Assembly: GCA_035938395.1 (NCBI GenBank)
Contig: DASZGY010000019.1
Coordinates: 1-61,894, forward strand
DNA: 61,894 nt
Direction of reading: 5' to 3'
From: Acidimicrobiia bacterium
Lineage (GTDB): Bacteria; Actinomycetota; Acidimicrobiia; IMCC26256; JACDBD01
Shown: one piece after another, positions 33,584 to 40,300 of the stretch
Layout: the number at the start of each line of letters is the position of its first letter
Numbering within the stretch: position 1 is the stretch's first letter
The notes under the pieces: model-generated
Database searches by the model: none
The model's input: only the letters and a program-made list of their open reading frames with translations
What the model was told of the DNA's origin: nothing
Made by a program: the position numbers and the translations under genes

Positions 33584-34072
33584 TCAGCACTCGCTCCAGA
33601 GACCACGGCCGGCACGCTTGGCGTCGAGCTCCTCTCGCAGCATCGTGCGGGCGTGTGCGTGATTGGGCTCGATGACCAGGAGGCGGGCGTATCCGCGGCG
33701 CAGTAGCTCGTCGTTGAACCGCTCGCCGTCGACGACGACGTACGCGAGGCGGCGGCCGTACCGATCGCGTCCCTCGATGTCGTCCTCCAGCTGCACCGCC
33801 CGTCCCGCCAGGTGCTCCTCGGTGAACGTGGCGGCCTCGGGCCCGAAGCATTCGACCGGCTTGGTCGGATGATGGGTCTCGGGCGTGTTGATGCCCAGCA
33901 GCCGGACCGTGTCGGTGTCGTTGCCGCCGCGGGCCACCTCGATCGTGTCGCCGTCGACGACGCGGACGACAGTCCATTCGGCGGTCGCGGCGTGGTGAGC
34001 TCGTCCGAGCCGCCAACCCCCGAGTGAGGCGGCGGCGAGGATCACCACGACCACGACCCGGGAGCGGGTCAT
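33584..34072 (-). CDS. Thermonuclease (SNase) family secreted/anchored nuclease
   Basis: N-terminal hydrophobic helix, VVDGDT, VRLLGINTPE, DRYGRRLAYV, RGLW. Confidence 0.92.
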   Translation of the reverse strand: MTRSRVVVVVILAAASLGGWRLGRAHHAATAEWTVVRVVDGDTIEVARGGNDTDTVRLLGINTPETHHPTKPVECFGPEAATFTEEHLAGRAVQLEDDIEGRDRYGRRLAYVVVDGERFNDELLRRGYARLLVIEPNHAHARTMLREELDAKRAGRGLWSEC

Positions 34073-34110
34073 ACAGGGATCGTACCGAGGCGGTGTGACG
34101 GCTTCCCGGG

Positions 34111-34590
34111 TCAGTACTGCGCGAAGTACGGCTTCTCGGGCTCGCGCTTCTCCAAGAGGATGAACACCAGCCCGTGCGGATCGGCGAACCACGTAGTGCG
34201 CAGGCCGACGATCTCGGCGGTCCCCTGAGTGAGGAAGTGCACACCCTTGCCCTCGAGCTCGACGCGGGTCTCGGCGATGTCGTCGCACACCAGCCCGACG
34301 TGGGTGAACCCGTGGTCCGTCACCGACGCGTCCTGCGGCCGGGGGTGGCCGGGCGCCCGCGGATACTCGATGACCTCGAGCACACGGTCGCCGCCATCCG
34401 GGAACCCGAGGATGGCGGCCTTCACCGCCACCGGGCTCGGCACCAGCTCGCCCATGTCGTGCTCGATGGCGTCGCCCTCCACGAGGTAGGGCGGCGAGAG
34501 GATGGTGAGGCCGAGCACGGACCGGTACCACTCGACGGCCGCCTCGACGTCCGGCACGCACACCGCCGTGTGGGCGATCCCGGTGATCAC
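34111..34590 (-). CDS. VOC/glyoxalase family protein
   Basis: IAHTAVCVPD...WYRSVLG, LEVIEY, GFTHVGLVCDD, WFADPHG...LE. Confidence 0.85.
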   Translation of the reverse strand: MITGIAHTAVCVPDVEAAVEWYRSVLGLTILSPPYLVEGDAIEHDMGELVPSPVAVKAAILGFPDGGDRVLEVIEYPRAPGHPRPQDASVTDHGFTHVGLVCDDIAETRVELEGKGVHFLTQGTAEIVGLRTTWFADPHGLVFILLEKREPEKPYFAQY

Positions 34591-34646
34591 CCGACGGACG
34601 TTAGGGGATGAGCGATCAGCGGCAAGCCCGCCGCTAGCTTTCCCCG

Positions 34647-35207
34647 ATGATGGCTCGTCGGGTCCGGCGTCTCGCGGTCGTCGTGCTCGTGCTGCTCGTG
34701 ATCGGGGGGATCGCGCTCGTGCTGACGACCCGCCCCAAGCTCGAGGACGCGCGAGACGGCGTCGACCGCGCGTGGACGCCGCTGCGGGGGCCGCTCTCCG
34801 AGAGGTACGCCAAGCTCGCGGAAGCGAACACGCAACTCGTTGCGGCGGGGGGCGGCGAACGAAACGTGTCCCGGGCTCTTGGGCTCCGGCTGGGCCGTTG
34901 GGACGAGCTGCGACGTGCCAAGGACGGCGATGCCGACGCCGACGCCGAGGCCCAGACCGCCGACCAGCTCGAAGGGCTCGCCACCCGGCTCCAAGCCGTC
35001 GTGTCGAGCTCCGACCGGCTGCGGGCGTCCGAACCCCTGAACCAGGCGATCGCCGCCTTCCAGGGCACGTTGCCGTCCCCACCGGCGGTCACGGCGTACA
35101 ACCGCACCGCCCGCGACTACGAGGACGAACGCAACGGCCTCCTGCGCGGCCCGGTCGCGAGCCTGTTCGGCTACGAGTCGCGACCGCAGCTGGTGCTCGG
35201 GACGTAG
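34647..35207 (+). CDS. LemA-like membrane-anchored protein
   Basis: N-terminal TM, VDRAW...L..RY, C-terminal AYN...RDY...GPVASLFGY. Confidence 0.7.
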   Translation: MMARRVRRLAVVVLVLLVIGGIALVLTTRPKLEDARDGVDRAWTPLRGPLSERYAKLAEANTQLVAAGGGERNVSRALGLRLGRWDELRRAKDGDADADAEAQTADQLEGLATRLQAVVSSSDRLRASEPLNQAIAAFQGTLPSPPAVTAYNRTARDYEDERNGLLRGPVASLFGYESRPQLVLGT

Positions 35208-35221
35208 CTCGAGCGTTCAGG

Positions 35222-37267
35222 TCAGCCGCTGACCACGTTCCCGAGCACGTCGACGCAGAAGTGGCCGTCGGTGCGGACGCCGAACGCGAGGCCGCCGCCG
35301 GCGCAGGTCGGGATCGCGGTGGTCGTGTCGGCCGAGCTGTTGAAGGCCGCGCCTGCCACCGCCGCGTTGCCGGCGCCGTTGGCGTTGCTCGTGGCCTGGC
35401 TGTTGGCGATGGCGCCGGATGCGGCGATCCCGCCGTTGTTGGACGACGCCGAGCTGCCGTTGCTGTTGAAAGCAGCGCCCGTGAACGACTGACTGCCGGT
35501 GCTGGCCGAAGAGCTGTTGCCGTTGCTGCCGAAGGCCGCGGTGGTGTTCGCTTGCCCGCCGTTGATCGCCGCGGCGGAGTTGCCGTTGCTGGCGAAGGAC
35601 GCATCGACATTCGCCACGCCGCCGTTGTTGGCGGCCGCCGAGTTGCCGTTGCTGCCGGCTGCCGCACTCACGTTCGCCTTTCCGCCATTTTGGGCGGCGC
35701 TGGCATTGCTGTTGCTCCCGAGGGACGCGTCCACGACCGCCGTCCCGCCGGTCTGGGCGGCGGCGGCGTTGCTGTTGCTGGCACCGGCCGCGATCACATG
35801 CGCCGTCCCTCCGAGGTTGGCGGCGGCGGCGTTGGCGTTACTGAAGTCGGATGCATCCACGCTCGCCGTGCCCCGGGCGTTGCCCACGGCCGAGTTGGCG
35901 TTGCTCTGGTTGCTGGTGTTCACGACTGCCGAACTGTCGATGTTGGCGACGGCGGAGTTCGCGGTGCTGCCGTCTGCGTTCAGCACCGCCAGGCTCCTGA
36001 TGATGGCGGTGGCGCTGTTGATGCCGGAACCGTTCGATGCATTGAGGACCGCCACGCTTTGGTCCTCTGCGTCTACCGCATTGCTGTTGCTGCCGGTCGT
36101 GGCGTTCAGGAGCGCCGCACTCGCTGTCTTGGCCACCGCGGTATTGACGTTGCTGGCGTTCGACGCGTTGACCTGAGCCGCGGCGAAGTTCTCCGCCTGC
36201 GCCGTGTTCGCAGTGCTGCCGTTGTCCGCGTTCACCAGGGCCGCGCTCGACCCCTGCGCGGACGCTACGTTCACACCTGCGCCGCTCGTCGCGTTCACGA
36301 CCGCCGCGCTCCCCTGCTGAGCCTGCGCGACGTTGCCGTTGCTGCCGCCGGTCGCGTTCACGAGCGCCGCGCTCGTGGTCTTTGCCTGCGCCACGTTGGC
36401 GTTGCTGACGTCGCTGGCGTCCACCCGCGCCGCGCTGAGGTCGCTCGCCTGGGCGACGTTGGAGGTGGCGCCACCTTCTGCGTTCACGAGCGCCGCGCTC
36501 AGGCTCCGCGCCTGCGCATTGTTCGCACCGGCGCCATTCGTGGCGTTGACCACTGCGACGCTGGCCCCGTTGGCCCCGGCGCTATTGCCGTTGCTGCCGT
36601 TCGCCGCGTTCACCTGGGCCGCGCCCGTGTTGGACGCCTGCGAGACGTTCCCGTTGCTCCCGTTGATCGCGTTCACTGCGGCCGCGCTTCCAGAGACCGC
36701 TTGCGCGACGTTCCCGCTGCTGCCGTTCGCCGCGATCACCTGCGCCGCGCTGAGACTGCTCGCCTGCGAGACGTTTCCGCCGCTGCCGTTCCCCGCGTTG
36801 ACGATGGCTACGGCCGCGTTGCTCGCCTGCGAAACGTTCCCGTTGCTGTTGTTCGCCGCGTCCACGAGCGCCGCGCTCGCGCTGCTCGCCTGGGCGACAT
36901 TTCCGTTGCTGTTGTCCGCCGCCCCGACCGCCGCTGAGCTCAGTCCCGCCGCCTGAGCAGAGTTCCCCCCGCTGTTGTTGGTCGAGTTGGCCAGGGCGAT
37001 GCTCGAGGTGGCGGCCTGCGCGTCCGCACTGCTCGAGTCGGCGGCCTGCGCGGCGGCAAAGCTGCCGGGATTGCTCGACGAAGTACAGGTACTGCCGACG
37101 CCGACGTTGACGGTGACACCCTGGACGCTGACGCACGAGTCGCCCGCTGCGCCGCTTGCCGGCGCGAGCGCGATGCCGGTTGCCAGCGCGCCCACCGTGA
37201 CCGCGATGCCGATCGAGATTCGCCGCGCGCGGCGCACCGCACGCTTCGCCGAGAGAACCCTGCCCAT
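35222..37267 (-). CDS. Secreted Ala/Asn/Ser-rich tandem-repeat protein (predicted beta-solenoid), function unknown
   Basis: Signal peptide (basic N-region, hydrophobic core, ASG/A cleavage), ~25 x 21-aa repeats, one Cys pair at each end. Confidence 0.85.
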   Translation of the reverse strand: MGRVLSAKRAVRRARRISIGIAVTVGALATGIALAPASGAAGDSCVSVQGVTVNVGVGSTCTSSSNPGSFAAAQAADSSSADAQAATSSIALANSTNNSGGNSAQAAGLSSAAVGAADNSNGNVAQASSASAALVDAANNSNGNVSQASNAAVAIVNAGNGSGGNVSQASSLSAAQVIAANGSSGNVAQAVSGSAAAVNAINGSNGNVSQASNTGAAQVNAANGSNGNSAGANGASVAVVNATNGAGANNAQARSLSAALVNAEGGATSNVAQASDLSAARVDASDVSNANVAQAKTTSAALVNATGGSNGNVAQAQQGSAAVVNATSGAGVNVASAQGSSAALVNADNGSTANTAQAENFAAAQVNASNASNVNTAVAKTASAALLNATTGSNSNAVDAEDQSVAVLNASNGSGINSATAIIRSLAVLNADGSTANSAVANIDSSAVVNTSNQSNANSAVGNARGTASVDASDFSNANAAAANLGGTAHVIAAGASNSNAAAAQTGGTAVVDASLGSNSNASAAQNGGKANVSAAAGSNGNSAAANNGGVANVDASFASNGNSAAAINGGQANTTAAFGSNGNSSSASTGSQSFTGAAFNSNGSSASSNNGGIAASGAIANSQATSNANGAGNAAVAGAAFNSSADTTTAIPTCAGGGLAFGVRTDGHFCVDVLGNVVSG
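35432..37003 (-). repeat. Degenerate 63-bp (21-codon) intragenic tandem repeat, ~25 copies
   Basis: Consensus approx. SAAxVNAxNGSNGNVAQAxxx, counted by eye from the translation; one unit is 20 aa. Confidence 0.9.
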
Positions 37268-37300
37268 GTCCGACCCCTACCCGTATCCGAGACTCGGGCC

Positions 37301-37365
37301 AGCCAATCCGAACGGCGTTCGGAAGTCAAGGCTTCGCGCGCAGAAAGGCGGTCCTCGCGCGCAGA
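37301..37365 (-). promoter_or_regulatory. Putative regulated promoter of the repeat-protein gene
   Basis: Minus strand TTGACT-N17-TTGGCT; the spacer is a perfect palindrome TCCGAACG-N-CGTTCGGA; upstream direct repeat TCGCGCGCAGA at 37334 and 37355. Confidence 0.6.
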
Positions 37366-37386
37366 GTGTCCGGAATCTCCCCTGAA

Positions 37387-40300
37387 TCAGCGCGCGGCGC
37401 CGATGACGTTCTGGTTGGCACGCTCGATCCGGGCCACCTCGCCGACGGGCGCGACGCGCCAGAAGCTCCTGAGCGTCGTGTCCCAATCACCGAGCATCGC
37501 GGCTGCACGAGCCGATCCGGTGAGCTCACGGTGCCGCTCGAGCAGGAACCGCAGCTCCGCTGCCTGCGGATCGTCGAGCTTCGACGCCTCCACCAGCTGC
37601 GGGTTCAGCCGCGCCGCCAGCAGTCCTTCGGGATCGAACACGAACGCCTGACCGCCGGTCATCCCGGCGCCGAGGTTGTAGCCGAACGGGCCCAGGACGA
37701 CGCACGTGCCGCCGGTCATGTACTCGCACGTGTGGTCGCCCGTCCCCTCGACGACAGCGGTCGCGCCGCTGTTGCGCACCATGAAGCGCTCGCCGACCCG
37801 GCCGGCGACAAAGAGTTGCCCGCCCGTCGCGCCGTACAGGACCGTGTTGCCGGCGAGGACGGCGTCGCCTGCGTCCCCTTCGGGCGGGCGCACGGTGACG
37901 CGTCCGCCGCCCATACCCTTGCCGAGGTAGTCGTTCGCCTCGCCCACGAGCTCGAGCGCGACGCCGTCGGCGAGGAACGCGCCGAAGCTCTGCCCGGCCG
38001 AGCCCGTGAGCCGCGCCGTCACCGACCCGGGCGGCAGTCCTTCGCCCCACTCGAGCCCGATCGCACCGCCGAGCGACGCGCCGACGGTGCGGTCGGCGTT
38101 GGTGATCTCGTACTCGAGCACGGCGTCGCCGCCGTCCCACAACGCGGAGAACGCGTCGGCGAGGAGCCGCTCGTCCAATGCCGACCGCGGCCGCTGGATC
38201 GGCACCGTCGCCACGAAATGCCGCGGTCCCTCCGACGAGGGCGTCGAGAGCAGGGGTGACAGGTCGAGCGAATCAGCGCGCGCGTCGCCCGTCGAGCGCT
38301 GGCGGAGCATGTCGACGCGCCCGATGGCTTCGTCGAGGGTTCGCATCCCCAGCGAGGCGAGTGTGCGACGAACCTCTTCGGCGATGAAGATCATGTACGT
38401 CGCGACACCTTCCGGCGTGCCCGTGAACTTGGCCCGCAGGTTCGGCCGCTGCGTCGCGATGCCGGTTGGGCAGGTGTCGCGGTGGCAGGCGCGCACCATG
38501 ATGCAGCCCTCGGCGAGCATCGCCGCCGTGCCGAACGAGTACTCGTCGGCGCCCAGGAGCGCCGCCATGACGACGTCGCGTCCCGTCCTGAAGCCGCCGT
38601 CCACGCGGACACGCACCCGGTCTCGCAGATCGTTCTCTATGAGCGCCTGCTGCGTCTCGGCGAGACCCAGCTCCCACGGCATGCCCGCGTTCTTGATCGA
38701 CGACAGCGGCGACGCGCCGGTGCCTCCATTGCTGCCCGAGATCTGCACCACGTCGGCGAGCGCCTTGACGACGCCGGCCGAGATCGTGCCGACGCCGTCC
38801 TCGGCGACGAGCTTCACCGACACCTCGGCCAGCGGATTGACCTGCTTGAGGTCGTAGATGAGCTGGGCGAGGTCCTCGATCGAGTAGATGTCGTGGTGCG
38901 GAGGCGGCGAGATCAGCCCGACGCCCGGCTGCGTGTGGCGGAGGCGCGCGATCTCGCCGCTCACCTTGTGGCCCGGCAGCTGGCCGCCTTCCCCGGGCTT
39001 CGATCCCTGGGCGATCTTGATGTTGAACTCGTCCGCGAACGCGCAGTACTCGGGCGTGACCCCGAACCGGCCCGACGCGATCTGCTTGATGCGCGAGTTG
39101 CGGTCGCGCTCGGTCCCGCGGGTGCGGTAGCGGGCCGGGTCCTCGCCGCCCTCGCCGCAGTTGCTCTTGCCTCCGAGCATGTTCATCGCGATCGCGAGCG
39201 TCTCGTGCGCTTCCGCCGACAGCGCGCCGTGGGACATGGCCCCGGTCGAGAACCGCGCCGTGATCGCCTCGACCGGCTCAACCTCGTCGATCGGGATCGG
39301 CTCACCGCCGGGAACGAGATCGAGCAGGTCCCGCAGCTCGGTCGTGGGTCGTGACTCGACGAGCTCGCGGAACCTCTCGTACAGGTCGGCGCGTCCGCCC
39401 TTGATCGCGCCCTGCAGGAGATGCGCCGCACGCAGGTCGGCCGGGTCCGGCTCGGGCAACGGCTCGGCGTCCGGGCCCTGCAGCACGATGACCTTGCCCT
39501 GGTCCTCGCTCGGCGCCGGCTCGACGCCGGCGAGCTTCCCGCTGACTTCGCTCTTCTTCTTGGGCTTGCGGTCGCCGTTCTCACCGTCGCCCTCGGGCGT
39601 GAGCCCGAGCGAGTCGTGCAGCGCGTCGACGACGTCGGGGTTGTTGCCGTGGTACTCGCCGCCGCGCTTGCGGTAGCGGAAGAACCCGGGCTCGTCGAGC
39701 GACGCCTTCTCGCCCTCGAACGCGGCTTCGTGCCGTCCGAGGATGTCGGCGCCGAGCGTGTCGAAGCCGACGCCGCCCACCTCGGACACCGTGAACCGCA
39801 GGCACGTCTCGATGACCTCGGGCCCGAGCCCGATGGCCTCGAAGATCTGCGCCGCCCGGTAGCCGTCGACGGTCGAGATGCCCATCTTCGAGAAGATCTT
39901 GAGGACGCCGTCTTCGAGCGCGGCTTGCAGCTGCGCCTGCGCCTCCGACGAATGGAGCTCCCCGAGCTGGTCGTCGTCGGCCATGCTCGCCACCGTCTCG
40001 AGCGCGAGGCGCGGGCATACCGCGTCGGCGCCGAACCCGAGCAGGCAGGCGACGCCGTGGACGTCGCGGGCGTCGCCCGAGGCGACGACGATCGACGCCT
40101 GCTGACGCGTGTGCTCGGCGACGAGCCGGTGGTGCACCGCCCCCAGCGCGAGCAGCGACGGGATCGGCGCGCGGTCGGCGCCGACGCCGCGGTCCGAGAT
40201 CACGAGGAGGCCGGCGCCGGCGGCGACGGCCTCGACGGCGGCGTCGGCCAGGGCCCGGATGGCGGGCTCGAGGCCGCCCGGACCGTCCGTGACCGGGAAG

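What the first reader, a model, noticed from the sequence alone, without database searches (positions are those of the whole stretch)
35222..37267. Secreted 681-aa protein of ~25 x 21-aa repeats with Cys-paired caps: candidate beta-solenoid fibre, functional amyloid or ice-binding protein
Seen: a signal peptide, an N-cap CVSVQGVTVNVGVGSTC, repeats such as SAAQVIAANGSSGNVAQAVSG / SAAAVNAINGSNGNVSQASNT with a near-invariant Asn and alternating small residues, and a C-cap CAGGGLAFGVRTDGHFC. Charged and aromatic residues are scarce. The repeat consensus drifts from an 'SAA..VN' type to a 'GxA.V' type along the protein. Known: curlin repeats are ~22-aa strand-arc-strand units with Asn/Gln ladders, and many ice-binding proteins are beta-solenoids. 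Inference: a curli-like architecture with Ala in place of the inward Gln, in an actinobacterium with no csg genes in this window. The caps loosely recall short mycobacterial DUF6764 proteins (from memory, unverified).
Basis: partly seen in the sequence, partly recalled or inferred. Interest (0 to 1): 0.76.

Follow-up and report, generated by a model that had tools for sequence, protein, structure and literature searches.

The report
Capped curli-like solenoid, soil actinobacterium
This is a real gene for a secreted protein built from 27 near-identical 21-residue turns closed at both ends by cysteine loops, predicted to fold like the curli fibre subunit but belonging to a very rare, strain-variable family of unknown function in uncultured soil actinobacteria.

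Summary
Window 35222-37267 (-) encodes a 681-aa protein with a signal-peptide-like N-terminus, two Cys loops (C45-C61, C655-C671) and 27 in-register 21-aa units (lag-21 identity 0.50 vs 0.15 shuffled, z=26).

The gene is real. Its dN/dS against an 87%-identical ortholog is 0.23. An independent soil contig reproduces it without indels, and RNA-library contigs from three studies lie on it.

AlphaFold2 gives an all-beta model with two strands per unit. Its best structural match is curli CsgA (Z=22.8, rmsd 7.9 A), well above generic beta-helices.

It is not a curlin. There is no HMM hit, no Gln ladder and no CsgG, and the ends are capped.

The DUF6764 resemblance is real in architecture but fails the statistical tests.

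The family is tiny: 20 hits among 1.84 billion representatives, all located members in one genus. It is an accessory gene. At one fixed slot the body is swapped, resized, degraded or absent while the caps persist.

Best reading: a disulfide-capped, discrete-length extracellular rod. Fibre and ice-binding roles remain untested.

The parts
35222..37267 (-). Complete CDS of the 681-aa repeat protein (stop codon at 35222-35224)
   Evidence: ORF list and translation. GC3 is 0.888, like the neighbours at 0.887-0.921. dN/dS against ortholog L036 is 0.225. An independent DNA contig covers it with no indel.
37142..37267 (-). Signal-peptide-like N-terminus (about residues 1-42). Basic n-region, hydrophobic I17-A34, Ala/Gly-rich c-region; cleavage site not predicted by a tool
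   Evidence: Read from the sequence. The 'MGR...' start and hydrophobic core are conserved in homologs. It differs from L036 at 2 of 42 residues.
37085..37135 (-). N-cap Cys loop C45-C61 (CVSVQGVTVNVGVGSTC), Cys at i/i+16
   Evidence: C45 and C61 are invariant in alignment A1. Cys spacing is 16 in 5 and 15 in 3 of the 8 sequences with an N-cap pair. The AF2 hairpin has low pLDDT, 52-60.
37022..37084 (-). Transition segment (residues 62-82) between N-cap and regular units
   Evidence: Layout; strands predicted.
35954..37021 (-). Repeat units 1-17 (residues 83-438), 'AQAxxxSAAxVNAxNGSNGNV' type
   Evidence: Register and profile. TRF 63-nt arrays at 36281-36500 and 36588-36922. AF2 pLDDT is 80-90.
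35321..35953 (-). Repeat units 18-27 (residues 439-649), 'AAAxNGGxAxVxAxxxSNxNS' type, with a Phe row at unit position 15 in the last units
   Evidence: TRF array at 35516-35843. This type resembles the units of the G011 paralogs.
35225..35320 (-). C-terminal cap (residues 650-681). The Cys loop C655-C671 lies at 35255-35305; motif IPTC.G.G....R.DGHFC.D..G...SG
   Evidence: It holds a long run of invariant columns in A1 and A4. Cys i/i+16 holds in 13 of 13 sequences with a C-cap. It differs from L036 at 2 of 32 residues.
37274..37278 (-). Shine-Dalgarno-like AGGGG, 7-11 nt before the ATG
   Evidence: Read; AGGGG or AAGGG is conserved in the 4-sequence alignment.
37301..37329 (-). Candidate own promoter: TTGACT (37324-37329), 17-nt spacer, TTGGCT (37301-37306). 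The spacer is the perfect palindrome TCCGAACGGCGTTCGGA (37307-37323)
   Evidence: Sequence. Both hexamers are conserved in L036 and L043; the palindrome only in L036. The palindrome is unique in the window. The sigma-70 consensus scan found nothing, so this is inference.

Best explanation
The gene encodes an exported, acidic protein of about 58 kDa (pI about 4). It folds into a long two-sheet beta-solenoid, with each 21-residue unit forming one strand-arc-strand turn.

The thin core is built from an Asn ladder (N20) and small residues (A1, A3 on one strand; A9, V11, A13 on the other), with S17 and S/G7 in the arcs. Twenty-seven turns would give a rod of roughly 13 nm, assuming the usual 4.8 A rise per turn.

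Each end is closed by a conserved 17-residue Cys loop that most likely forms an intramolecular disulfide outside the cell. I infer that these caps keep the solenoid at a discrete length and block the open-ended beta-sheet extension by which uncapped curli subunits polymerise.

I therefore read it as a self-contained, strain-variable extracellular or cell-surface structural rod (spacer, coat or adhesin-like). It has a curli-like fold but is not a curlin and is not made by a curli pathway.

Shown here: the gene is real and under purifying selection; the periodicity; kernel and cap conservation; rarity; and locus variability.
Predicted: the fold.
Inferred: export, disulfides, monomeric state and role.
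For: Real gene:
- GC3 is 0.888.
- dN/dS is 0.225 overall, 0.071 at kernel positions, 0.391 at other repeat positions and 0.128 for signal peptide plus caps.
- An independent contig of run X2 covers 34000-38122 with 13 mismatches and no indel.
- RNA-library contigs of three studies lie on the gene with 0-2 mismatches.

Fold:
- AF2 gives mean pLDDT 74.7 and pTM 0.65, with 80-90 over most of the array and two strands per unit.
- All top Foldseek rows are beta-helices, though none reaches E<=0.001.
- VIA-align over 48,161 chains ranks P. korlensis CsgA (8c50_A) first, with Z=22.8, 304 residues aligned and rmsd 7.9 A. The next row is at 18.1, and generic beta-helices reach at most 16.3 in the second look.

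Support independent of AF2:
- Positions 1, 3, 7, 9, 13, 17 and 20 are the least variable both in 26 units of P0001 and in 28 units of two G011 paralogs, while positions 2, 4, 5, 19 and 21 vary freely.
- Against ortholog L036, kernel positions differ at 13 of 216 and others at 69 of 350 (Fisher p=3.8e-6).

Caps:
- All four Cys are invariant.
- Cys i/i+16 holds in 13 of 13 C-caps.
- The caps plus signal peptide differ from L036 at 5 of 114 residues, the repeats at 82 of 567 (p=0.002).
- Two DsbA-type genes are present in the genome.

Stand-alone and variable:
- No partner gene is shared across three genomic contexts.
- At the gltB/ORF186 slot the body is swapped, resized by whole units, degraded or absent.

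From the literature: open-ended solenoids that lack caps polymerise (Discussion passage of PMC10192328).
Against: - The fold rests on one AF2 model from a 4-sequence alignment. [quoted passage not shown]
- The caps themselves are modelled with low confidence: pLDDT about 52-60 for the N-cap, and below 50 for residues 640-658.
- The CsgA match has a high rmsd (7.9 A) and 7% identity.
- No disulfide, export, monomeric state or localisation was shown.
- No known wall-anchoring motif or domain was found, so a 'surface' location is a guess.
- VKOR was not found.
- RNA-library contigs do not prove transcription, a caveat the tool itself gives.
- The high conservation of both caps would equally fit a subunit-subunit interface.
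Confidence: 0.45

Rival explanations
1. Cap-mediated fibre (a Gram-positive functional amyloid or pilus-like polymer). The conserved N- and C-caps would be complementary head-to-tail connectors, possibly with intermolecular disulfides. Subunits would stack into long curli-like filaments without any Csg machinery.
For: - The best fold match is the curli subunit.
- The caps are the most conserved parts: 3 of 72 residues differ from L036, against 82 of 567 in the body. An interface would be conserved in this way.
- Both caps have the same i/i+16 Cys geometry.
- The body length varies by whole units, as curlin repeat numbers do (4-62; PMC10192328 section 6).
Against: - Natural amyloid-forming solenoids such as CsgA have open ends. 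Caps are what the curli paper contrasts them with.
- There is no nucleator paralog or accessory gene in the own genome or near any copy.
- The kernel lacks the Gln ladders of curlin.
Confidence: 0.2
2. Ice-binding or ice-structuring protein. One flat, repetitive, uncharged face of the solenoid would organise water and bind ice in seasonally frozen soil.
For: - Face 1 (unit positions 19/21/2) has 1 charged residue in 81 cells. It is almost all G/A/S/T/V, with a Gln row in the N-terminal units. Charges sit in arc 1 and on face 2.
- This fits the criteria quoted from PMC5744647 (passages): flat, repetitive, short relatively hydrophobic side chains, with charges elsewhere.
- LpAFP also has Asn rows in its core (same passages).
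- MpAFP (3p4g_A) is a structural match at Z=14.8, rmsd 4.2 A, 266 residues aligned.
- All 20 runs that hold the gene are soil metagenomes.
Against: - No Pfam family of any kind matches above threshold, ice-binding families included.
- The face is not conserved. In the G011 paralogs positions 2, 19 and 21 are D/H/F-rich with entropy 3.0-3.3. In L043-type alleles at the same slot the whole body is a different Gly/Val repeat.
- Non-kernel dN/dS is 0.39.
- There is no regular T-x-T or T-x-N array.
- The MpAFP match is no better than those to dozens of unrelated beta-helices.
Confidence: 0.1
3. Not a folded solenoid. The protein would be a secreted low-complexity, largely disordered or gel-forming Ala/Ser/Asn/Gly-rich polymer, and the AF2 solenoid would be an artefact of its repeat bias.
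For: - AF2's documented bias (PMC11795689, abstract).
- The alignment was shallow, with 4 rows.
- The five AF2 models range from pLDDT 59 to 75.
- The composition is 68% A/S/N/G.
- The DUF6764 control fold came out at only pLDDT 49.
Against: - The strict i/i+2/i+4 conservation of small or hydrophobic residues and of one Asn on two segments per unit is shared by paralogs whose other positions have diverged.
- dN/dS is 0.07 at those positions against 0.39 elsewhere.
- An exact 21-residue register is kept from cap to cap in three proteins.
- Two compensating 1-aa indels keep the ortholog at 681 aa.
- Pro is almost absent, and there are no uncompensated buried charges.
Confidence: 0.12

Closest known systems
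Curli subunit CsgA / curlin repeat (Pfam PF07012; structure 8c50, Pontibacter korlensis CsgA)
   Same: - It is secreted.
- It has tandem strand-arc-strand units of about 21-23 aa (21 here; 23+/-5 in curlins, PMC10192328 section 6).
- An Asn starts the first strand, with small hydrophobic inward residues at i+2 and i+4.
- The arcs are Gly/Ser-rich.
- The number of units is variable.
- CsgA is the best structural match to the AF2 model (Z=22.8, 304 residues aligned, rmsd 7.9 A).
   Different: - There is no Curlin_rpt HMM hit at E<=10 for P0001 or at E<=1 for 9 other members.
- The kernel is N-x-A-x-A / A-x-V-x-A (5 residues, no Gln ladder) instead of N-$-Psi-$-Psi-$-Q twice.
- Both ends carry conserved Cys-loop caps, whereas curlins are open-ended.
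- The host is an Actinomycetota MAG with no CsgG or curlin gene found.
- It is a solitary accessory gene, not part of an operon.
DUF6764 (Pfam PF20550), short secreted proteins of unknown function
   Same: - The architecture matches: signal peptide, Cys-bracketed N-cap, Gly/Ala-rich beta units, and a C-cap with 'PTC.GG.AF' and Cys at i/i+16 (3 of 3 DUF6764 proteins fetched; 13 of 13 family C-caps).
- Both occur in the phylum Actinomycetota.
- The nearest ESM Atlas cluster by features is named 'DUF6764 domain-containing protein' (score 0.87, 184 of 256 features; PF20550 on 17% of its 52 members).
- Sub-threshold HMM hits recur: E=0.063, 0.021 and 0.41.
   Different: - All HMM scores are 11-15 bits against a cut-off of 27.
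- P0001 itself gives no hit.
- hhalign gives E=0.068 and 0.016, with probability at most 3%.
- The cap profile did not retrieve the three DUF6764 loci among its 22 weak hits in the two genomes.
- DUF6764 proteins are about 165 aa with a few irregular units. This protein has 27 regular units.
- The DUF6764 N-cap spacing is 17, not 15-16.
- The AF2 model of DUF6764 was too poor to compare (pLDDT 49).
Beta-solenoid ice-binding proteins (LpAFP of ryegrass; MpAFP region IV, 3p4g)
   Same: - It is a repetitive solenoid with internal Asn rows and a small-residue core.
- One face is flat and uncharged (criteria from passages of PMC5744647).
- MpAFP matches at Z=14.8.
   Different: - The period differs: 21 aa here, 14-15 aa in LpAFP per PMC5744647.
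- There is no NXVXG or T-x-T array.
- The candidate face is not conserved in paralogs or alleles.
- There is no family HMM hit.
Beta-helical adhesins of Gram-negative bacteria (Ag43, TibA, HMW1, EtpA, Vag8)
   Same: - They are long secreted rods of about 19-21-residue turns that are poor in charge.
- They give structural matches at Z 13-17 with rmsd 3-5 A.
- Strain-variable surface proteins are typical of this class (my own knowledge).
   Different: - Those are three-sided helices exported by type V systems through an outer membrane (my own knowledge).
- Here there are two strands per turn, no translocator or TPS domain, and a monoderm-type phylum.
Chaplins (Pfam PF03777), actinobacterial surface amyloids with one Cys pair (features recalled)
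   Same: Small-residue-rich secreted actinobacterial proteins with a conserved Cys pair (recalled, not tested beyond the HMM scan).
   Different: - No chaplin HMM hit.
- Chaplins are single or double domains of about 40 aa, not long periodic arrays (recalled).

Membership tests
Curlin (CsgA/CsgB, PF07012) | Significant match to the Curlin_rpt HMM | tested here: not met
   No hit at E<=10 for P0001. None at E<=1 in the whole genome, while the control rang in E. coli. 0 of 9 other family members at E<=1.
Curlin (CsgA/CsgB, PF07012) | Kernel N-$-Psi1-$-Psi2-$-Q twice per repeat, with inward Gln ladders (PMC10192328 section 6) | tested here: not met
   The conserved positions are N20, A1, A3 and A9, V11, A13. 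Gln occurs only at the variable position 2, in 12 of 27 units. The definition was read.
Curlin (CsgA/CsgB, PF07012) | Strand-arc-strand repeat of 23+/-5 aa forming a two-sheet beta-solenoid | tested here: met
   The period is 21 aa. AF2 gives two strands per unit. The best structural match is CsgA 8c50_A at Z=22.8. This is prediction only, and the AF2 repeat bias applies.
Curlin (CsgA/CsgB, PF07012) | Co-occurrence with the CsgG secretion channel (98% of CsgA genomes, PMC10192328) | tested here: not met
   CsgG (PF03783) was not found at E<=1 in the 96.5%-complete genome; the control rang in E. coli.
Curlin (CsgA/CsgB, PF07012) | Open, uncapped solenoid ends that allow polymerisation | tested here: not met
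   Conserved Cys-loop segments lie at both ends. That they act as caps is inferred.
DUF6764 (PF20550) | HMM score at or above the 27-bit gathering cut-off | tested here: not met
   P0001 whole and its caps alone give no hit. The best scores in the family are 15.1 bits (P0002), 13.6 (G004 C-terminus) and 11 (P0022).
DUF6764 (PF20550) | Profile-profile or reciprocal sequence similarity to true members | tested here: not met
   hhalign gives E=0.068 (probability 0.8%) and E=0.016 (probability 2.8%). The cap profile gave 22 hits at E 0.15-9.4 in G305 and G581, none at the 3 DUF6764 loci.
DUF6764 (PF20550) | Architecture: signal peptide, N-terminal Cys pair, Gly/Ala-rich units, C-terminal Cys pair at i/i+16 preceded by PTC | tested here: met
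   Seen in 3 of 3 true members fetched and in the family.
DUF6764 (PF20550) | Likeness by language-model features or predicted fold | tested here: inconclusive
   The top ESM Atlas cluster is DUF6764-named at 0.87, which is under the 0.9 level and so only a lead. The cap alone gave at most 0.79, to unnamed clusters. The DUF6764 AF2 model is unusable at pLDDT 49.
Ice-binding proteins | Match to a described ice-binding or ice-nucleation family | tested here: not met
   The whole Pfam-A and NCBIfam scans gave no family above threshold.
Ice-binding proteins | Flat, repetitive, uncharged ice-binding face | tested here: inconclusive
   It is present in P0001: face 19/21/2 has 1 charged residue in 81 cells. 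It is not conserved in paralogs or alleles.
Ice-binding proteins | Ice recrystallisation inhibition, thermal hysteresis or nucleation activity | not testable with these tools
   Needs recombinant protein.
Functional amyloid (generic) | Fibrils with cross-beta signature; ThT/Congo red binding; SDS resistance | not testable with these tools
   Needs recombinant protein.
Chaplin (PF03777) | Match to the chaplin HMM | tested here: not met
   No hit at E<=10.

The most novel reading that the evidence does not exclude
This would be a third, independently evolved bacterial curli-type system, and the first in a monoderm phylum. A single gene would make a curli-fold solenoid whose conserved disulfide caps serve as head-to-tail connectors. 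Strain-specific extracellular fibres would then assemble with no chaperone, nucleator or secretion channel. The solenoid body would be free to be swapped and resized at a fixed chromosomal slot.
Probability: 0.15. Interest if true: 0.8.

Novelty: new variant of a known kind. Interest (0 to 1): 0.5.

Why it matters
If the predicted fold holds, this is a curli-like two-sheet solenoid that differs from known curli in three ways. It occurs in Gram-positive-type soil bacteria, it needs no Csg machinery, and it carries built-in disulfide caps.

It would be a natural example of how a cross-beta solenoid is kept at a defined length, which is a design problem in amyloid-based materials.

The family also offers a natural experiment. 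One chromosomal slot holds bodies of different repeat type and number between conserved ends.

The family is absent from Pfam and almost absent from 15 billion predicted proteins, so any function found would be new. On present evidence it remains an orphan structural protein.

Tried and rejected
- Complex prediction. N-end (residues 44-210) against C-end (500-681) was sent to test head-to-tail docking. After repeated 'queue full' answers the job ran. Result: no verdict (score 0.00, mark 0.32, controls not folded).
- Word-index homolog searches. The full protein gave none among 8,000 scored candidates. Residues 600-681 gave none among 2,328. P0007 gave only itself and one 80% relative.
- PDB by sequence. 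Only a spurious GldM match at E=0.023.
- Foldseek against PDB. 0 matches at E<=0.001.
- DUF6764 searches. Not found in the own genome or in 201 genomes of the class (where the control rang nowhere). Found in 2 of 401 genomes of the phylum.
- AF2 of a true DUF6764 protein. pLDDT 49, so it was not sent to fold search.
- ESM Atlas with the cap region alone. Scores at most 0.79, to unnamed clusters.
- Phage link. No relative among 54 pattern matches on viral contigs and no PHROG hit for 3 members.
- Mobile-element origin. No direct repeats at the slot borders.
- RNA element. No Rfam family in 34900-37500.
- Consensus promoter and terminator scan. Nothing found.
- N-glycosylation sequons. 27 against 20.4+/-3.7 in shuffles, too weak to build on.
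- My own 'LemA' label for the neighbour at 34647-35204. It has no Pfam hit, so I dropped the label and call it ORF186.
- RNA coverage of the neighbours. It cannot be ranked against the gene, because the runs were chosen with this gene.
- P0017 (978 aa, E=4e-6). It is an unrelated repeat protein without caps.
Full report
OBSERVATION. The ORF at window 35222-37267 on the minus strand is present and encodes 681 residues.
The N-cap is residues 45-61 and the C-cap loop is residues 655-671.
- Composition is A 26%, S 16%, N 14%, G 12%, V 9%. There are only 4 Cys, 10 Phe and no Trp or Tyr.
- Residue identity at lag 21 is 0.504, against 0.153 in 200 shuffles (z=26.1). Lags 42 and 63 follow at z=23.9 and 17.8.
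- Tandem Repeats Finder reports 63-nt arrays with 71-74% matches.
- Laid out in register there are 27 units from residue 83 to 649, one of them a residue short.

IS IT A REAL GENE?
- GC3 in this frame is 0.888, like the neighbours at 0.887-0.921. The antisense frame that shares third positions has the same value, so GC3 alone does not settle the strand.
- The minus-strand protein has homologs with conserved ends.
- Against an ortholog at the same locus (L036: 681 aa, 594 of 682 aligned columns identical) dN/dS is 0.225, with dS 0.34.
- The 63-nt units are only 50-78% identical to each other, so the array is old and can be assembled.
- A 5,065-nt contig of an independent soil run (X2) covers 34000-38122 with 13 mismatches and no indel.
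- Twenty runs from 17 studies, all labelled soil metagenome, hold the gene or parts of it, and 7 hold at least half of its sampled words.
- Contigs from three metatranscriptome libraries of three studies lie on the gene with 0-2 mismatches. X17: 35271-35527, 35628-35778, 36076-36321. X18: 35394-35630, 35950-36100, 36084-36234. X19: 36926-37188. The tool warns that DNA can be present in RNA libraries and that these runs were picked with this gene. This is compatible with transcription but does not prove it.
- An AGGGG lies 7-11 nt before the ATG. A TTGACT / 17 nt / TTGGCT pair lies in the 119-nt gap after gltB and is conserved in L036 and L043. The consensus scan found no promoter or terminator.
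- The ESM Atlas holds the protein only from residue 11. The 'MGR' start is conserved in homologs, so I keep the ATG at 37267.

ANATOMY.
- Residues 1-42 look like a signal peptide: six Arg/Lys, then an 18-residue hydrophobic stretch, then an Ala/Gly-rich region. No predictor was available. Arg pairs recur in homologs, so Tat export cannot be excluded.
- The mature protein would be about 58 kDa with pI about 4.05, and without Trp, Tyr or Met.
- In the 27 units the least variable positions are A1 (74%), A3 (89%), A9 (96%), V11 (70%), A13 (93%), S17 (89%) and N20 (89%). The positions between them vary. That gives two i/i+2/i+4 triplets per unit, N20-A1-A3 and A9-V11-A13, separated by an S/G7 arc and an N-G-S-N arc.
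- Both Cys pairs are spaced i/i+16. In the G011 paralogs the C-cap loop occupies exactly one 21-residue register step.

FOLD.
- AlphaFold2 on a 4-row alignment gave mean pLDDT 74.7 and pTM 0.65. The five models scored 74.7, 73.3, 71.3, 69.0 and 59.1. Confidence is 80-90 over most of the array and low over 1-43 and 640-658. There are two six-residue strands per unit.
- Foldseek against the PDB found nothing at E<=0.001. The best hit was Ag43b at E=0.047, and the top rows are all beta-helices.
- VIA-align against 48,161 representative chains ranked the curli subunit CsgA of Pontibacter korlensis first (8c50_A: Z=22.8, rmsd 7.9 A, 304 of 355 residues aligned, 7% identity). UspA1 followed at 18.1 and many three-sided beta-helices at 10-17.
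- In a second look at Foldseek's 89 chains the best was TibA at Z=16.3.
- Three observations independent of AF2 speak for a real strand-arc-strand unit.
  - First, the same kernel positions are least variable in 26 units of P0001 and in 28 units of two diverged paralogs.
  - Second, against the ortholog, kernel positions differ at 13 of 216 and other repeat positions at 69 of 350 (p=3.8e-6). The matching dN/dS values are 0.071 and 0.391.
  - Third, three proteins keep an exact 21-residue register from cap to cap, and two compensating one-residue indels keep the ortholog at 681 aa.
- I could not read the model's coordinates, so which side of each strand faces inward is inferred from conservation.

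FAMILY AND DISTRIBUTION.
- No Pfam or NCBIfam family matches.
- An exhaustive profile search of 1.84 billion representatives found 20 proteins at E<=0.001, 10 at E<=1e-10 and 4 at E<=1e-30. Most are fragments and one (P0017) is unrelated.
- Among about 185,000 species genomes, 4 loci were confirmed out of 115 pattern matches, all from uncultured Actinomycetota MAGs.
- In the metagenome collection, 12 loci were confirmed out of 197 pattern matches.
- With the full protein, 5 of 18 other genomes of the genus matched and 0 of 22 genomes outside it. With the cap profile, 5 of 18 matched and 0 of 7 from other genera of the family. Taken together that is 6 of the 18 other genus genomes (G001, G004, G005, G009, G011, G012); with G000, 7 of 19. 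G012 is an unpublished genome.
- The own genome has one copy. G011 has two copies in tandem.
I did not check that.

A VARIABLE SLOT. In the window the gene fills the 2.18 kb between the convergent ends of gltB and a 186-aa membrane-anchored ORF (ORF186, which has no Pfam hit).
- Empty: in five loci of four genus members that hold an ORF186 ortholog (found in 4 of 5 genomes queried) the two ends abut, with 11-38 nt between the alignment ends.
- Same type: L036 and the partial L037 carry the 27x21 type.
- Different body: L043, L044 and L045 carry the same signal peptide and caps around a different body of about 16-18 units of 20 aa (TGVGSTVGLGAAAANDGSAA). L044 differs from L043 by an exact 40-aa, two-unit indel plus one substitution.
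- Degraded: L016 (whose degraded reading frame also appears in G012's locus L005) holds a roughly 570-nt frameshifted remnant with both caps and no array. L047 keeps only the last 21 residues.
- Elsewhere: G004-type copies (22-aa period) and the G011 pair lie in unrelated neighbourhoods. No partner gene is shared.
- The slot borders carry no direct repeats. No relative was found on viral contigs and there is no PHROG hit.

COMPARISON WITH KNOWN FAMILIES.
- Curlin. The fold prediction, the period and the leading Asn agree. The HMM, the Gln ladders, the CsgG partner and the open ends do not (definitions from PMC10192328 section 6 and Discussion passages).
- DUF6764. Three true members fetched from another class show the same architecture and C-cap geometry. 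The nearest ESM Atlas cluster carries that name (0.87, 184 of 256 features). All HMM scores are sub-threshold, hhalign is not significant, and the reciprocal cap search missed the DUF6764 loci. I treat it as a possible distant relative, not a member.
- Ice-binding solenoids. P0001 has one strikingly uncharged, small-residue face, with 1 charged residue in 81 cells. This fits the criteria in passages of PMC5744647. The face is not kept in paralogs or alleles.
- Literature. A search for DUF6764 found one unrelated paper. A search for beta-solenoid, functional amyloid and Actinobacteria listed nothing on such a family among the 12 titles shown. Subscription journals are not covered by these searches.

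MECHANISM.
- I commit to a disulfide-capped, discrete-length, two-sheet solenoid rod exported by the general secretion route. It would act alone as a strain-variable extracellular or surface structural protein (confidence 0.45).
- The caps, which are the best conserved parts, most plausibly nucleate folding and block end-to-end beta-sheet extension. The body is a spacer whose length and surface are free to change.
- Two DsbA-type genes make extracellular disulfides plausible. VKOR was not found.
- Rivals: a cap-mediated fibre (0.20), an unfolded low-complexity polymer with an AF2 artefact (0.12), and ice binding (0.10).

LIMITS.
- No signal-peptide predictor, model coordinates or second structure predictor were available.
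- The alignments are shallow.
- Expression is not proven.
- The organism is uncultured.

Noticed in passing
window 37307-37323: The perfect palindrome TCCGAACGGCGTTCGGA exactly fills the 17-nt spacer between TTGACT and TTGGCT upstream of the gene, so it may be an operator. It is unique in the window, although 9 of 100 shuffles also gave one match. It is identical in ortholog L036 and absent from L043 and L016.
   Followed up: partly
L043 6001-7269, L044 5149-6537, L045 6001-7269: Near-identical metagenome alleles at the same slot differ by an exact two-unit (40-aa) indel in a 20-aa Gly/Val-rich repeat body. This points to recent repeat copy-number change between strains.
   Followed up: yes
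window 34647-35207 (+): The convergent neighbour is a conserved 186-aa protein with one N-terminal hydrophobic helix and no Pfam match at E<=0.001. It looked LemA-like to me by eye only. It is present in 4 of 5 genus genomes queried.
   Followed up: partly
P0016 (71-aa fragment from the representative library): Its first 28 residues equal P0001, and it then continues like the L043-type allele (APTSGAVSNAC.SVQGATVN) before breaking off. It may be a recombinant between allele types, or a frameshifted fragment.
   Followed up: no
L047 374-694: At the same slot (ORF186 follows) an ORF ends with the last 21 residues of P0001 (100% identical), fused to an unrelated N-terminal part. It is either a deletion remnant or a chimeric contig.
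   Followed up: no
L015 4084-5457 (+): About 1.4 kb upstream of the G004-type copy, across two intervening genes, lies a 457-aa secreted-looking protein that is extremely rich in Gly (long GGGGxGG runs) and has no Pfam match.
   Followed up: no
G011a (L002 506-1693), G011b (L007 2-1417): N-x-S/T sequons are enriched in the paralogs: 14 against 6.4+/-2.1, and 18 against 9.2+/-2.6 in shuffles. They arise mostly from the N-[AG]-S arc. In P0001 the excess is weak (27 against 20.4+/-3.7).
   Followed up: partly
window 37363-37386 (minus strand), L036, L043, L016 (alignment A5): A block GGGAGATTCCGGACACTCTGCGCG directly after the gltB stop is conserved in all four loci aligned, including the degraded one. 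Its function is unknown.
   Followed up: no
G012:C237:1024-1182 and G001:C10:24426-24554: Two further cap-bearing ORFs (493 and 235 aa open frames) match the cap profile at E about 6e-13. They were not examined. G012 is an unpublished genome.
   Followed up: no
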